Assembly (NCBI GenBank): GCA_918797485.1
Contig: CAKKNE010000003.1
Location: 5,270,001 to 5,334,000, forward strand
Direction: 5' to 3'
From: Pelagomonas calceolata
Lineage: Eukaryota
Length of the DNA: 64,000 nucleotides
Of this stretch, positions 46,818 through 53,436 are shown one piece after another. Each line of letters begins with the position of its first letter. Position 1 is the first letter of the stretch. Made by a program: the position numbers and the translations under genes. Below the pieces are notes generated by a model, which worked only from the letters and a program-made list of their open reading frames with translations, made no database searches and had not been told where the DNA came from.

Positions 46818-49800
46818 ATGGCCGGCGCCGGCGCCGCCGCGACGTCGTCGCGCGGCGACGGGTGCCCAGCCAACGCCGATGCCCCCAAAAAGACGAAAAA
46901 GAAAAAGTCCAAGGAAGCGCGCCCCGGCGTCTCGGCGGGACTCGCGCGTAGTAGTCGACGCGGCCGCCTTCCCCTCGCAGTCGCGCGACGGCGCCGCCCT
47001 GCGCAAGCTGGTCAAGGGCCTGATCTTCGGCGCCGCGGACGCGGCGCGCGCGCGGCGCCGTTAATTTCTCGTCCGACCGCGGTTCGTCGCCTCTCACGCG
47101 TCGCGGCGCGCAGGCCGTCGACGAGTCGACGGCGCGAGAGCGGCGGAGGAAGAAGCCGCCGTCGCTGGCGCAGCGCGAGGCCGAGGCCGCGCGCGCGAAA
47201 CGCGAGGCCGCGCGCCGGCGGCGGGTCGAAGCGGAGCGCGCGGGGGCCGCGCCGGCGCCCGCTCCGGCGCGGCCGGCCGCGCCGGCCGCGCCCGCGCCGC
47301 CGGGCTCGCCCGGCGCGAGTGCCGCGCCCGACCGGGCCGCGGGCCCGTCGTCGAAGGGGAAGGCGCCAACGCCGCGGTCGCGCGGCGCGTCGGCGGACTG
47401 GGCCGACGGCGCGAGATACGGCGCGTCGCTCGCGCGCGGCGGCGCCGCGTTACGCCGCCCTCGGCCCTCGACGACGTGCGCCTCCCCGCCGCCGCAGGCC
47501 GAGGCCAGGTCCGGGCGCGCCGCCGCCGCGCCGCCGTCGCCAGCGCCGTCCCCGCTCGCGGTCCTGCGGCGACCCGCCCACCTCAGCGCCGAGGGCGCGT
47601 GGCGGCGGCCCGCCGCGCCGGCGTCGTGGGCGTCGGCCGTCGCCGGCGCGGCGCCGGCGCCGGCCGCGGGGGCGAGAGCGACGCAACCTTCGTGGGCGGC
47701 GCTCGCGCGCGCGCCGCCGCCGCCGCACAAGCCAGCGCCCCAGCAGACGCCCAACGCCTGGACGCAGAAGCCGCGCGGCGCGCTCGCGCGCGGCTTCGCG
47801 GCGCTGCGAGAGAGGAGCGAGGCCGAGGCCGCCGCGGTCGCGCGCGCCGAGGCGGCCGCGTCGGAGACGTCGTGCGCGAGCGCGCCCACCGCCGAGACGC
47901 CGCACGCGCGCTTGGACGACCCGCCGTCCGCCGCGGTCTCGGACGCGTCGGACGCCGCCGGCGCCGACGACGACCGCGCCGCGCTCGCCAAGGCGCCGCG
48001 CGCCGCCGCGTGGGGCGGCGAGCTGCCGGCGAGCCTCCGCCTCGCGCGCGCGCCGCCGCGGGCCGGGGCCGCCGGCGCCCCCGCGCGCGCGGGCGCGGCG
48101 CCGGCGCCGGCCCCGCGGCCGGCGCGGCCGGCGCCGGCGCGGCGCGTCGCGGCCATGTACCACGCGGGCCCCGCGCTGCCCCAGCTCGACGAGGCGGGCG
48201 ACGACCCGCACCGCGCGCCGCGCGAGGCGGCGGACGCCGCCGCGACCGCCGCGCGCCGCGCGGCGGTCGGGCGCGCGACCGAGGCCGAGCGGCGGCGGCG
48301 CATCGCCGAGGACGCCGCGGGCGACGGCCGCGACCCGCGCGCGCGGCGCGACCGCGCGCGCCTGCTCGAGGACGAGTACGCGCGGCGCGCGGCCGAGCAC
48401 GAGCGCCGCGTCCGCGCGCACGAGCGCCGCGTCCGCGCCATGCGCGCGCGCCTCGCGCACGACGTCAACGACTTCGTCGCCTGCCTCGAGCGCGCCATGG
48501 TGCACCAGCGCCGCGCGCGGACGGCCGTGCTCGACTCCGTCTCCGAGACGGCGCGCGGCATCTGGGCGCACGCCGAGTGCTCGCTCTACGGCTCGTGCCT
48601 CACGGGCCTGGACCTGCCCAGCTCCGACGTCGACGTCGTCGTCCGCGGCCTCAACTGCGACCCGACGCCCAACCCGCCCGCGGGCGCGCCCGGCGCGCCG
48701 GCCGCCGCGGACGCCGCGCGCGCGCCGGCCGCAGGCGGCGCCGCCGCGCGGCCGGCGACGCCGCCGGCGACGCCGCCGGCGACGCCGGAGCGCGCGGCGT
48801 CCGCGCCGGCGTCCCCGGCGGCGGCCGACGACCGGCCGCGCGCGCCCAGCCGCCGCGGCGCGGACGCGGCCGGCGGCGGCGGCGGCGGCGGCGGCGGGCC
48901 CGGGTCCGCGCCGGCGTCGCCGCGTCGGTCCCCCGCGCGCCCGGGCCCGTCGCCGCGCCGCGCGCCGGCGGCCGCGCCCGGGCCGCACGCCGGCGTCGTC
49001 CGGTGCGTGCAGACGCTCGCCGCGGCGCTCGGCTCGCAGCCGTGGGTCCGCGAGATCAAGGCCATCGAGACGGCGTCGATTCCCGTGATCAAGCTGCTCG
49101 CCGACCCCGCGGTCCTCGGGTGCCCGCTGCCCGAGTTTCGCCGGACGCGGCCGCGCGCGCGCTCGGAGGACGCCGCGCGCGCGCTCGCCGAGACCGACGC
49201 GCCCGACCTGCCGCCGCCGCCGCCGCCGCCGCAGAGGCCCCGGGCCGCGCCGACCGCCGCCGCCGCGACGCCGCCGTCGTCGACTCCAGCCCCGCCGACG
49301 TGGTGCGGCGCGGTCGGGCGCTGCGACGCGGGCCTGCTCGCGGTCGACATCAGCTTCGAGGCGCCGAACCACGGCGGCCTCGCGTCGTCGCGCTACGCGC
49401 TCGAGGCCATGGGGCGCTGGCCGGAGCTCGCGCCGCTCCTCCTCGTGTTGAAGGAGCTCCTCTGCCAGCGGGGCCTCAACGAGCCCTTCACGGGCGGCCT
49501 GAGCAGCTACTCGCTGCTCCTCCTCGCGATGACGGCGCTGCTCCAGGCCGGCGTCGACCCGCTCGAGGCGCCGCTGCCCCGGCCGCAGCATCACACGCCG
49601 CTCGGCGAGGCCGCGCCCGGCGCCGAACCGCCGGCGGCCCAGCGCGCGCCGCTCGGGCCGCCGACGTCGGTCCGCGAGGCGTGGGCGCGCCTCCGCGACG
49701 ACCCGGCGCGGCGGCGCCGGCCGCTGCGCGACGCCGCCGGCGCCGGCGCGCGGCGGCGGCCGAGCCTCGCCGCGCGAATCAGAGGCGGCGACGCGCTGCT

Positions 49801-50167
49801 GTGGAGCGGCACCGACCAGCGGCGCGCGTTCGAGCGGGACGACGACGCGCTCGGCTACCTCCTGACTTTTTTCCTCGAGTTCTTCGGCCGCCACTTCGAC
49901 CCGCAGCGGCACGCGGTCTCCGTGCTCCGCGGGGACGCGGGAATCATCGCCATGGCCGGCCCCGGCTACACGACCGACCCGCAGTTCGTCGCGCCGCTCA
50001 TCGAGGACCCGCTCGAGTGCACGCGGAACGTCTCGCGGTCGTGCTTCGGCATCGCGCAGATCCAAAACGTCTTCGCCCATTGCCTCTGCATCCTCGAGTC
50101 CAAGGGCGCCGCCGCCGCGATGAGCGACGACTCGTGCAACATCCTGAGCCTCGTCCTTTCCTATTAG
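46818..50167 (+). CDS. Non-canonical poly(A) polymerase / terminal nucleotidyltransferase (Trf4/TENT4-like)
   Basis: YGS..TGLDLPSSDVDVV, ASIPVIKL, RGLNEPFTGGLSSY and IEDPLECTRNVSRSCF; 5' exons inferred through GC-AG introns 46917-46980 and 47041-47113 (less certain). Confidence 0.85.
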
Positions 50168-50360: not shown

Positions 50361-50975
50361 CTACACGGCCCCGGCCTCCGTCTTGCGCTTCCTAATGAGG
50401 TGCTGCGTGACGCGCGAGAGCACGGCGACGTAGCCCGTGACCGCGGCGGTGCAGTAGGCGACGCGGAGGTGCGCGGGGACGCAGGCAAACATGAAGCCGT
50501 TCGCGGGGACCCAGAAGGCCCAGAGCACGGGAAGTTGCGTCGCGGCCTCGTCGGCGTAGAGGCGCAGGGCCCGCGCGGGCGACTCGCGCCGGACGAGGGA
50601 GTGCGTGAACAGATAAAAGCAGGGGAAGTAGAAAAGCGGCGATAGCAGGAGGCTGTCGGCGGCGATGGCCGCGGCCACGTTGCGCCACAGCTTCGAGCCG
50701 TCGGCCGCTTCGTGCGGGAACCACCTCGAGAACAGCGTCGCGTAGACGTACAGGTCGATGACGAAAGTGACGAACAGCGTCCACGCAACGTAGGTCAGGG
50801 ATCGGCGCCAGTCGAACGCCGCGAGGCCTTCGGCTTTTTGCGCCATCGCGTCGCCGACGCAGCCGCTCGCGCAGCCCAGGCAGAGCGACGACGCCACCGG
50901 GTTGTCCTCGAGCGCACGGCTCAGCCCCTTGGCTAGCGGTCGCAGCGTCGAGGCGACATGCTTCAGGCCGCCCAT
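50361..50975 (-). CDS. Mpv17/PMP22-family membrane protein
   Basis: NPV..GCVGDAMAQ, FDWRRS, WAFWVPANGFMFACVPAHLRV. Confidence 0.88.
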   Translation of the reverse strand: MGGLKHVASTLRPLAKGLSRALEDNPVASSLCLGCASGCVGDAMAQKAEGLAAFDWRRSLTYVAWTLFVTFVIDLYVYATLFSRWFPHEAADGSKLWRNVAAAIAADSLLLSPLFYFPCFYLFTHSLVRRESPARALRLYADEAATQLPVLWAFWVPANGFMFACVPAHLRVAYCTAAVTGYVAVLSRVTQHLIRKRKTEAGAV

Positions 50976-51088
50976 CGAAGACGAATTTTGTTTTTTGCGC
51001 TGTCTCTGCGCTGTCCTCTGGGTTCCGCTCTGCACGGGTTTTCTAAGGCTTCCATTTGTGTATATTCTTTCCAGCAGCTTTCATGAGT

Positions 51089-51201
51089 GCTCCAATAGCT
51101 CATCGCTGTCGAAGTGCAGCGGGCGCGGTGGCAGAGCACCTTTCCTTTGGAGTGCAACACTAGTAATGAGAAGGTCATGAGTTCAAGTCTCATTTGGAGC
51201 T
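51089..51201 (+). tRNA. tRNA-Thr(AGT) interrupted by two non-canonical introns (51103-51127 and 51142-51157)
   Basis: Acceptor stem GCTCCAA/TTGGAGC, D-stem GCTC/GAGC, anticodon loop CTAGTAA, variable AGGTC, T-arm ATGAG-TTCAAGT-CTCAT, downstream oligo-T. Removing the two inserts gives a 72-nt cloverleaf. Confidence 0.88.
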
Positions 51202-51203
51202 TA

Positions 51204-51220
51204 TTTTTTTGTTTTTTTTT
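51204..51220 (+). terminator. Pol III oligo-T terminator
   Basis: T7-G-T9 run immediately after the tRNA. Confidence 0.8.
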
Positions 51221-51376
51221 GGCTGTGGACCTTATCGAGACCTTTTGGGCGAGAGCGGAGGGTGGCGGTGAGAGGGGGGGGTTACCGTCCGGCAGGCGAC
51301 GGCGCGTTGCACGCCACAGCGGCAGCCAAAACACCGCCAGCGGGGTCGCGCTGCCCCGCCCGCCGCTCGCTCTCCC

Positions 51377-52723
51377 ATGGGGGAGGCGCCCCAGCGCGCC
51401 GCCAAGCCCGCCAAGGCCGCGCGGCGGAAGAAGCGCGCGGCCGAGGAGTGCCTCGTCTTCGAGTGCCTCAAGCCGCGCTACGACGCCTTCAAGAAGGTCG
51501 GCAACGGCAGCTACGGCGTCGTCTGCAGCGCCGTCGACGCGCAGGACGCCGGCGCGCGGCGCGTGGCGATCAAGCGCGTGAGCCCCTGGGCCGACGACTG
51601 CTGGGACGCGCGGCACACGCTCCGCGAGCTGCGGCTCATGCACCTGCTGCGCGGGCACCCGAACGTGATCAGCCTCCACGACGCGGTGCTGCGCCCCGGC
51701 GGCTCCGACGACCTCTTCATCGTCATGGAGCTCATGGACTCGGACCTGCACCGGGTCGTCTCGTCCAAGCAGGCGCGCGGCCCGCGCCGACGTTCGCGGC
51801 ACACGGGGCGCCCGCGCGCGCCGCCGGCAGGGGGCGCGGTCGACGCGCGGCCGCCGCGCAGGTCCTGACGGCCGAGCACGTCTCGTGCATGCTGTGCCAG
51901 ATCCTGCTGGGCGTCCAGGCCCTGCACAGCGTGGGCATCCTGCACCGCGACCTGAAGCCGGGCAACGTCCTGGTCTCGCGCGACTGCCGCGTCCGCATCA
52001 CGGACTTCGGCCTCTCGCGGTGCGTCGCCGGCCTCGCCGCCGACGCCGCGCGCGCGGACGCCGCCGACGACGCCAAGAACCCGCTGACCGAGTACGTCGT
52101 CACGCGCTGGTACCGCTGCCCCGAGGTGCTCCTGGCGCCGCACCTGCCGTACTCGACCGCGGTCGACTGCTGGTCCGTCGGCTGCATCCTCGGCGAGATG
52201 CTGCTGCGGAAGCCGCTGTTCCAGGGCAAGAACTTCGTGCACCAGGTGCAGGTCATCCTGGAGAAGCTCGGCACGCCGACGGACGGCGCGCTCGGCTTCG
52301 AGCCGCGCGAGGACGCCGCGCGCTTCCTGGCCAAGCAGCCGGCGCGCGACGACCCCGGCGTCGCCGCGCTGCTCCCCGACGCGACGCCCCGCCAGCGGGC
52401 GCTGGCGCGGCGCTTCCTCCAGTTCAACCCCGAGGTGCGGTGCACGGTCGAGGCCGCGCTCGCCGACCCGCTCTTCGACGACGCGCCCGAGCTGCCGGCG
52501 CCGTCGCGACCCTACTTCGACGCCGCCGCCGCGCGCGCGGGGACGGCGCCGGCGGCGCTCCGCGACTTTGCGGCGAGCGTCGCGGCGGATCCGTGCTTCG
52601 ACTTCGACTTCGAGCGGAGCGGCACGACGCTGGCCGAGCTCAAGGCCGAGGTCAAGGACCAGATCGCGGCCGCGCGCGCCAAGGCCGCGCGCCAGGCCGC
52701 CGCCGCGGCCGCACCCAGGGCGC

Positions 52724-52757
<34 letters not shown>

Positions 52758-53436
52758 GCCGCGCGCCGCCGAAGCGAAGCAGCCGCTCGCCCCGCGGCCG
52801 GCCGCGGCCATTCGCGCGCGCGATCCCGGCGCGGCGCTCGCGCCCGCGGGGCCGAGCTCGCACGACGTGGCCGCGCGGCCGCTCGCGGCGCTGCCGGACG
52901 ACCCGTCGCGGCGCCTCGCTTCGGCGTCGCTCGGCGACAAGCCCGAGCCCTGGAGCCCCCGCGCGCGCGACCGCGACCGCGATCGGCCGCGCGGCGGCGG
53001 CGGCCGCGTCCTGCCCGCGCGCGCGGACCGGCGCGCGCGCGGGCGCCCGGCCGCCGACCTCCTGTCCGGGCGCCTCGCAAGCGCCCCTGCGCGGCCGGCG
53101 CGCGGTGGGTCGGCCGCGCCGCCCGACGCCGACGCCGCGCGCGCCGACGCGGCCGCGCGCCCGCCCGCGCGGCCTCAACCCGCCCGCGGCGCGCGCGCGC
53201 GCCTCTTCGCGCTGCCGTCCCTGCGCCCCCCGCGCCAGCACCCCGGCCGCGTCCGGCCGCACGGCTCCCCGCCGCGCGGCGGCCGCGCCGCGTCGGCGGG
53301 CGCGGGGGAGGCGTCGCCGCGCCGCGCCGCGCGCCCGGGCCGCGAGAAGCTCCTGCTCGCCAACGTCCCCCGCGCGGGCGACAAGCCGGGCTCCGCCGGG
53401 CTGCTGTCGCGGCTCCGCTCCGTGTCCGCGCGGTAG
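51377..53436 (+). CDS. Mitogen-activated protein kinase (TEY type) with long low-complexity C-terminal tail
   Basis: [29 protein letters not shown] and [18 protein letters not shown] intron 51773-51861. Confidence 0.95.

What the first reader, a model, noticed from the sequence alone, without database searches (positions are those of the whole stretch)
51089..51201. Cryptic nuclear tRNA-Thr(AGT) with two archaeal-style BHB-like introns at non-canonical positions
Seen: removing 51103-51127 (25 nt, position 14/15, D-loop) and 51142-51157 (16 nt, position 29/30, anticodon stem) gives GCTCCAA TA GCTC AGTGGCA GAGC A CCTCA CTAGTAA TGAGA AGGTC ATGAG TTCAAGT CTCAT TTGGAGC T, a 72-nt cloverleaf with only a C27.A43 mismatch, followed by oligo-T. 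Both inserts have splicing-endonuclease geometry. Intron 2: exon GCAC pairs perfectly with intron GTGC, flanked by CT^T and AA^C, with an inner TCC/GGA stem. Intron 1: 6-bp inner stem CGCTGT/GCAGCG, CA^T bulge, AGCT/GGCG central helix (3 of 4 pairs), CG^G. Outer helices are relaxed. Known: eukaryotic tRNA introns are normally at 37/38; ectopic, multiple BHB introns are typical of Thermoproteales archaea and of Cyanidioschyzon and nucleomorphs. Inference: this lineage has structure-guided tRNA splicing and a hidden tRNA set that standard scans miss. Intron 1 also splits the Pol III A box, implying unusual promoter use. I am not aware of a description in pelagophytes but cannot check.
Basis: partly seen in the sequence, partly recalled or inferred. 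Interest (0 to 1): 0.9.

Follow-up and report, generated by a model that had tools for sequence, protein, structure and literature searches.

The report
Double-intron tRNA in a pelagophyte alga
A marine pelagophyte alga carries a threonine tRNA gene that standard scans miss because two short inserts shaped like archaeal-type introns split it at unusual places; it is likely spliced by an enzyme that reads RNA shape, a design we found reported for archaea and red-algal lineages but not for this group.

Summary
Removing 51103-51127 (position 14/15) and 51142-51157 (29/30) gives a 72-nt tRNA-Thr(AGT); ARAGORN and Rfam miss the gene. Both inserts have HBh'-type bulge-helix geometry at those registers (about 1 in 1,000 shuffles each). 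In five metagenome alleles 0 of 113 sites vary against 52 of 242 flank sites, and a TATA-like block is conserved. RPL18 places the host among pelagophytes.

Not shown: splicing (RNA contigs hold only the unspliced form), covariation in the intron helices, other such genes in the host, absence of an intronless copy. The BHB folds are minor states in the folding model, and intron 1 has a rival 23-nt register.

Verdict: a likely functional tRNA spliced as in Cyanidioschyzon; a known kind in a supergroup where ten literature searches found no report. This scan earlier noted similar introns in giant viruses and C. merolae, not this gene.

The parts
51049..51069 (+). Conserved upstream AT-rich block with a TATA-like hexamer at 51061-51066, 28 nt before G1; likely Pol III upstream promoter element
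   Evidence: 1 of 21 sites variable in 3 alleles against 34 of 88 in the adjacent upstream DNA, Fisher p=0.0015; promoter role inferred
51089..51102 (+). Exon 1: acceptor 5' strand, U8-A9, D-stem 5' strand, A14 (tRNA positions 1-14; first half of the A box)
51103..51127 (+). Intron 1, 25 nt, position 14/15 (D-loop): 6-bp inner stem 51104-51109/51116-51121, central helix strand 51122-51125 against exon 51097-51100 (3 of 4 pairs)
   Evidence: 199 of 200,000 shuffles reach this geometry; rival register 51104-51126
51128..51141 (+). Exon 2: G15 to U29 (rest of D-loop, D-stem 3' strand, A26, first three bases of the anticodon stem)
51142..51157 (+). Intron 2, 16 nt, position 29/30 (anticodon stem): 3-bp inner stem 51143-51145/51149-51151, central helix strand 51152-51155 against exon 51136-51139 (4 of 4 Watson-Crick pairs)
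   Evidence: 154 of 200,000 shuffles reach this geometry
51158..51201 (+). Exon 3: C30 to U73, with anticodon AGT at 51162-51164, variable loop, T-arm 51177-51193 (intact B box), acceptor 3' strand 51194-51200
51204..51221 (+). Oligo-T tract (T7, G, T10); likely Pol III terminator
   Evidence: sequence; present in all 5 alleles, 2 of 21 sites of 51202-51222 variable

Best explanation
This is a nuclear tRNA-Thr(AGT) gene of a pelagophyte alga, split by two short inserts with bulge-helix geometry at positions 14/15 and 29/30, that is likely transcribed by RNA polymerase III and likely matured by a tRNA splicing endonuclease reading local RNA shape, not distance from the tRNA body. Proposed steps: (1) Pol III starts from the upstream TATA-like block helped by the intact B box, since the A box is split, and stops at the oligo-T (inferred). 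(2) Each intron folds a hairpin whose 3' arm pairs with a D-stem strand, placing both splice sites two bases into 3-nt bulges (geometry shown; folding in vivo inferred). The two motifs use opposite D-stem strands and can form together. (3) TSEN cuts, a tRNA ligase joins the exons (inferred from C. merolae and archaea). (4) Ends are trimmed, CCA is added and A34 becomes inosine, so that the tRNA reads ACC and ACU (established eukaryotic pathway, recalled, untested here).
For: Product is a full cloverleaf called Thr(agt). Uninterrupted viral gene L163 matches 64 of 72 without gaps; 6 of 8 differences form 3 compensatory pairs; L154 matches 59 of 72 with 4 compensatory pairs and 1 broken pair; both share C27.A43. 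BHB geometry falls on the same registers, 199 and 154 of 200,000 shuffles. 0 of 113 sites vary in 5 alleles, introns 0 of 41, against 52 of 242 flank sites; 5 RNA-run contigs over the gene show no differing letter in 51085-51222. ACC is 8 of 33 Thr codons in three nearby genes. The same design, with upstream TATA and split boxes, is expressed and spliced in C. merolae (PMC3728597).
Against: No spliced form seen: 4 RNA runs, contigs only, no joints; such libraries would rarely hold a mature tRNA. No covariation in the intron helices, as all alleles are identical and no other species was found. Central helices have pair probabilities of 0.04-0.07 in the precursor, and the best fold with both motifs is -33.0 against -37.2 kcal/mol; local folds have z of -0.73 and -1.57. 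Intron invariance is not significant against a nearby mostly spliceosomal-intron region (0 of 41 vs 5 of 111, p=0.20). Host TSEN was not found or tested.
Confidence: 0.82

Rival explanations
1. A dead or non-spliced copy: two insertions into a tRNA-Thr gene whose job is done by an intronless copy elsewhere in the genome.
For: No spliced reads; BHB folds are minor in the model; a review notes that short D- or T-arm insertions in eukaryotes are mostly taken for pseudogenes (PMC4090602 passage); an intronless copy in the host was not excluded (no genome).
Against: All stems intact; 0 of 113 sites vary against 52 of 242 flank sites, p=3e-10; upstream block and terminator conserved; two independent inserts both have splice geometry at the registers fixed by homology.
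Confidence: 0.08
2. Same mechanism, but intron 1 is cut in the neighbouring register (23 nt, 51104-51126, position 15/16), giving a 74-nt tRNA with U15 and a 9-nt D-loop.
For: That register has a 4 of 4 central helix and a 5-bp inner stem; ARAGORN still calls the product Thr(agt).
Against: It loses G15-C48, found in 44 of 44 uninterrupted Thr(AGT) genes; HMM score 56.1 against 63.4.
Confidence: 0.05
3. The inserts are removed, but by something other than TSEN (another endoribonuclease, or a different route for each insert).
For: Outer helices are missing or weak and intron 1 has a mismatch in the central helix; most G. theta nucleomorph introns cannot form a BHB yet are excised (PMC3728597 discussion; PMC4090602 passage).
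Against: Both inserts place the cuts where the BHB rule predicts; their ends are TC..CG and TT..AA, not spliceosomal; they are too short for group I or II introns (own knowledge).
Confidence: 0.04
4. The locus is a tRNA-Gln(TTG): intron 1 is removed and a different 16-nt stretch near 37/38 is spliced, as ARAGORN proposes for the form lacking intron 1.
For: ARAGORN calls tRNA-Gln(ttg) on that form.
Against: It needs an extra base before the anticodon stem and a 4-bp stem with a G-U pair, and would discard the anticodon loop that is identical in the uninterrupted viral Thr genes. HMM 36.6 bits, though that model is built of Thr genes.
Confidence: 0.01

Closest known systems
Ectopic and multiple BHB introns of nuclear tRNA genes in Cyanidioschyzon merolae 10D (PMC3728597; read parts 1-3 of 6)
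   Same: Nuclear gene, two short introns off 37/38, D-loop site, relaxed HBh'-type motifs, split A box, upstream TATA-like element and T-stretch, missed by standard scans.
   Different: Host is a stramenopile, not a red alga. The paper lists D-stem, D-loop, variable arm, T-stem, T-loop and 37/38 sites, no anticodon-stem site such as 29/30. Splicing is shown there and not here. No permuted structure here.
Atypical tRNA introns of Chondrus crispus and the Guillardia theta nucleomorph (passages in PMC13578239, PMC4090602; primary papers not seen)
   Same: Non-canonical, sometimes multiple introns in eukaryotic tRNA genes, including anticodon stem-loop sites in nucleomorphs.
   Different: Those are red algal or red-derived genomes; most G. 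theta introns cannot form a BHB. Here the gene lies in a host nucleus of the SAR supergroup.
Non-canonical HBh'/hBH introns of Thermoproteales and other archaea (passages in PMC4090602, PMC8450103)
   Same: Position 29/30 is listed among archaeal sites; several introns per gene; splice sites set by local structure.
   Different: Eukaryotic tRNA body with AGT anticodon, Pol III-type terminator and nuclear neighbours; no archaeal homologue among 122 GTDB loci examined.
Hypothesis that eukaryotes outside Amorphea have an (alpha-beta)2 TSEN able to cut non-canonical introns (PMC10485636, section 6 read)
   Same: Predicts exactly such genes, hidden from tRNAscan-SE eukaryotic mode.
   Different: That section names Leishmania, Plasmodium, plants and red algae, not stramenopiles; the enzyme was not examined here.

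Membership tests
Eukaryotic nuclear tRNA-Thr(AGT) gene | Cloverleaf with conserved U8, A14, G15-C48, G18G19, U33, T-loop and AGT anticodon after insert removal | tested here: met
   one stem mismatch (C27.A43), shared with uninterrupted viral genes
Eukaryotic nuclear tRNA-Thr(AGT) gene | Lies in nuclear DNA with Pol III signals (B box, oligo-T) | tested here: met
   Neighbours RPL18, Mpv17/PMP22-like, protein kinase; RPL18 in a 97/96 clade with named pelagophytes; oligo-T at 51204-51221
Eukaryotic nuclear tRNA-Thr(AGT) gene | Under purifying selection | tested here: met
   0 of 113 vs 52 of 242 variable sites in 5 alleles
Eukaryotic nuclear tRNA-Thr(AGT) gene | Expressed as a mature, charged tRNA | tested here: inconclusive
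   RNA contigs hold the unspliced form only and may be DNA
Ectopic BHB-type tRNA intron (C. merolae / archaeal kind) | Insert off position 37/38 whose clean removal restores the tRNA | tested here: met
   Unique best of 50,050 splices against an uninterrupted homologue
Ectopic BHB-type tRNA intron (C. merolae / archaeal kind) | 4-bp central helix with splice sites in flanking 3-nt bulges, at least in relaxed HBh' form | tested here: met
   Intron 2 4 of 4 pairs, intron 1 3 of 4, each with an inner stem
Strict hBHBh' motif | Both outer helices present | tested here: not met
   Exon-exon helix 0 of 4 (intron 1) and 2 of 4 (intron 2) pairs; not filed as strict BHB
Ectopic BHB-type tRNA intron (C. 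merolae / archaeal kind) | Motif kept by covariation across species | tested here: inconclusive
   Only 5 near-identical alleles found; no variation in the introns
Ectopic BHB-type tRNA intron (C. merolae / archaeal kind) | Excised in vivo by tRNA splicing endonuclease | not testable with these tools
   Needs tRNA-seq, RT-PCR or in vitro cleavage
Canonical eukaryotic 37/38 tRNA intron | Single intron one base 3' of the anticodon | tested here: not met
   Sites are 14/15 and 29/30
Spliceosomal intron | GT/GC...AG ends | tested here: not met
   Ends are TC..CG and TT..AA

The most novel reading that the evidence does not exclude
Pelagophytes, abundant open-ocean stramenopiles, independently evolved a genome-wide set of hidden tRNA genes with ectopic BHB introns, processed by an archaeal-like structure-guided TSEN and transcribed from upstream TATA elements without normal A-box use; marine giant viruses with such introns rely on hosts of this kind.
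Probability: 0.4. Interest if true: 0.75.

Novelty: new member of a known kind. Interest (0 to 1): 0.58.

Why it matters
A 2026 review (PMC13578239, passages) places non-canonical tRNA introns in red algae and a red-derived nucleomorph and leaves open whether they are ancestral, convergent or transferred. A case in a stramenopile host nucleus widens the range to the SAR supergroup. It gives a short, ready substrate in a cultured lineage for the open proposal that eukaryotes outside animals and fungi have a shape-reading TSEN (PMC10485636, section 6). It also means tRNA counts and codon-adaptation work in pelagophytes may rest on incomplete tRNA sets, and it offers a candidate host type for giant-virus tRNAs with ectopic introns.

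Tried and rejected
No whole genome is held, so no genome-wide search for further genes, an intronless copy, TSEN or TFIIIC. ARAGORN with long introns or lowered thresholds gave only GC-rich noise and never the right structure. Rfam at gathering and E-value thresholds found no tRNA. No second tRNA-like gene in the window (that scan would miss T-arm introns); the two weaker matches to the upstream motif led nowhere, one of the two was read. The metagenome pattern that requires intron 2 found 5 loci, all 97-99% like the window, no other species; the same kind of pattern found 0 in GTDB. Of 122 GTDB loci with the Thr(AGT) 3' motif, 108 were plain tRNAs and 14 were half genes or chance, none with these introns. 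Of 120 viral loci none had inserts at 14/15 or 29/30. RNA contigs X19 record 7 and X20 record 9 cover mainly the gene, and several contigs start at 51085, but the break lies beside a polymorphic site and DNA can be in these libraries, so this is not counted as expression. The order of splicing could not be inferred: module energies (-10.3, -6.0) would put intron 1 first by the C. merolae rule, but pair probabilities change little between intermediates. In one search my T-stem and anticodon-stem coordinates were wrong, so those rows and the three fixed-structure energies are discarded. The MAFFT alignment misplaced the gaps and was not used. The 5-of-111 comparison region is approximate and holds about 24 coding bases. 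No tRNA_int_endo domain was found in virus bin G001 (68% complete). Species of the host was not determined.

Full report
Observation. The sequence at 51089-51201 is as described. Removing 51103-51127 and 51142-51157 gives a 72-nt cloverleaf that ARAGORN calls tRNA-Thr(agt); the genomic form and the form lacking only intron 2 give nothing. The default ARAGORN scan and Rfam find no tRNA in the window. The only unpaired stem position is C27.A43. A scan for a T-arm with matching acceptor ends found this one site on both strands, against 0.01 per window in 100 block shuffles and none with oligo-T.

Host. Neighbours are nuclear genes: RPL18, an Mpv17/PMP22-like gene and a protein kinase. RPL18 is 88% identical to Aureococcus anophagefferens and 80% to Aureoumbra and Pelagophyceae CCMP2097, and falls in a 97/96 clade of 13 of 27 rows with these named pelagophytes. 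So the host is a pelagophyte other than A. anophagefferens. The locus occurs in marine metagenomes. The species was not determined; Pelagomonas is a guess from my own knowledge. No genome is held.

The boundaries are fixed by homology, independently of the BHB idea. Viral contigs yielded 44 distinct uninterrupted tRNA-Thr(AGT) genes. The closest, L163, matches the spliced product at 64 of 72 positions without gaps; six of the eight differences form three compensatory pairs and two lie in loops. L154 matches 59 of 72 with four compensatory pairs and one broken pair. Both share the anticodon arm and the C27.A43 mismatch, so that mismatch is natural. On an HMM of the 44 genes the product scores 63.4 bits, the one-intron forms 51.6 and 48.5, the genomic form 36.7.

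Splice geometry. By the BHB rule the central helix pairs exon bases n-5 to n-2 with intron bases -6 to -3, and an inner stem starts at intron base 2. Intron 2 meets this with 4 of 4 Watson-Crick pairs and a 3-bp inner stem; intron 1 with 3 of 4 pairs and a 6-bp inner stem. Shuffled introns reach these values 154 and 199 times in 200,000. The exon-exon helix is absent for intron 1 and has 2 of 4 pairs for intron 2, so the motifs are the relaxed HBh' type, not strict hBHBh'. Against: intron 1 has a second register (23 nt) with a 4 of 4 helix, though its product loses G15-C48, kept in 44 of 44 reference genes, and scores 56.1. The central helices have pair probabilities of 0.04-0.07 in the precursor and the best fold holding both motifs lies 4.2 kcal/mol above the minimum; local folds are not more stable than shuffles (z -0.73 and -1.57). 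The enzyme would have to capture a minor conformer.

Selection. Five metagenome contigs, 97-99% identical to the window, carry the gene; four cover all 113 nt and one starts at 51105. No site varies in the gene (0 of 113; introns 0 of 41) while 52 of 242 flank sites do (p=3e-10; introns alone p=1e-4, or 0.011 against the downstream flank only). A 21-nt block with a TATA-like hexamer 28 nt upstream varies at 1 site against 34 of 88 around it. Against a nearby region that is mostly a spliceosomal intron (5 of 111) the intron invariance is not significant (p=0.20). As nothing varies, there is no covariation test for the helices, and no other species was found.

RNA. Four metatranscriptome runs held as contigs gave 11 pieces; five overlap the gene, all unspliced, with no joint and no differing letter in 51085-51222. 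These libraries are unsuited to mature tRNA and may hold DNA, so this neither shows nor excludes splicing. Whether the host has an intronless copy stays open.

Mechanism. Most likely Pol III transcribes the gene from the upstream TATA-like element and the intact B box, because intron 1 splits the A box (positions 8-19 per PMC3978253), and stops at the oligo-T. The two introns pair with opposite D-stem strands and can fold together; TSEN cuts in the bulges, a ligase joins the exons, and the usual end processing and A34-to-I editing give a reader of ACC and ACU. ACC is 8 of 33 Thr codons in three nearby genes. Shown: anatomy, boundaries, geometry, conservation. Inferred: transcription, folding, cleavage, editing. 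Confidence 0.82; rivals are a dead copy (0.08), the other intron-1 register (0.05), another enzyme (0.04) and a Gln reading (0.01).

Known systems. The same design is established in C. merolae, with northern and RT-PCR evidence, upstream TATA and split boxes (PMC3728597, parts 1-3 of 6 read); its listed sites include the D-loop but no anticodon-stem site. Position 29/30 is listed for archaea, and nucleomorph introns occur in the anticodon stem-loop (PMC4090602 passages). A 2026 review names C. merolae, Chondrus and the G. theta nucleomorph for non-canonical introns and does not mention pelagophytes in text or searched supplements; its table holds two heterokonts (PMC13578239 passages and supplement). 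PMC10485636 (passages and section 6) proposes that eukaryotes outside Amorphea have an (alpha-beta)2 TSEN that may cut such introns and that tRNAscan-SE eukaryotic mode would miss them. Ten searches found no report for pelagophytes or stramenopiles. Passages only were read in PMC8450103, PMC8975779, PMC11237714 and two preprints; preprint supplements could not be seen. Cognat 2022, Maruyama 2010, Kawach 2005 and Marck and Grosjean 2003 were not seen and could hold a mention. PMC11237714 reports 123 tRNAs for an Aureococcus assembly, which speaks against a gross shortage there.

Earlier notes of this scan describe ectopic introns in giant-virus tRNAs and known C. merolae genes, none for this genome or gene. 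They prompted the viral scans but were not checked. One virus bin with the intronless Thr gene also holds a tRNA-Tyr with a 25-nt insert at 43/44 of the same geometry as intron 1.

Verdict. A real and likely functional double-intron tRNA gene: a new member of a known kind, in a supergroup where I found no report. Interest 0.58. The bolder reading, a lineage-wide hidden tRNA set with an archaeal-like TSEN, has probability about 0.4 and would merit 0.75.

Noticed in passing
L289:63-173 (G001:C8, giant-virus bin): tRNA-Tyr(GTA) with a canonical 13-nt intron plus a 25-nt insert at 43/44 with the same geometry as intron 1 here (central helix 3 of 4, inner stem 7 bp); removal gives a 73-nt tRNA-Tyr. 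The same bin holds an intronless tRNA-Thr(AGT) with the window gene's anticodon arm. Host unknown.
   Followed up: partly
L154-L165: 13 viral loci, several from marine giant-virus bins, carry an intronless tRNA-Thr(AGT) with the same anticodon arm and C27.A43 mismatch as the spliced window product; may reflect capture from a related algal host.
   Followed up: partly
L127, L128, L131, L135, L137, L138, L149 (also L146, L147): Viral tRNA-like genes with matching acceptor ends and 22-35 nt hairpin inserts in the D-loop at 14/15 that fail the BHB test (central helix 1-2 of 4). Enlarged D-loops or another kind of intron.
   Followed up: partly
window 51773-51861 (+): Likely GC-AG spliceosomal intron in the MAP-kinase-like gene that starts at 51377.
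   Followed up: partly
window 50361-50975 (-) and 51377-53436 (+): The tRNA gene sits in a 400-nt gap between divergently oriented Mpv17/PMP22-like and protein kinase genes.
   Followed up: no
window 51113-51118 and 51151-51156: The two introns share a short AGTGCA stretch; chance or a trace of common origin.
   Followed up: no
window 48155-50167 (+): Non-canonical poly(A) polymerase-like gene (MTPAP-like central and PAP_assoc domains), about 0.9 kb upstream of the tRNA gene.
   Followed up: no
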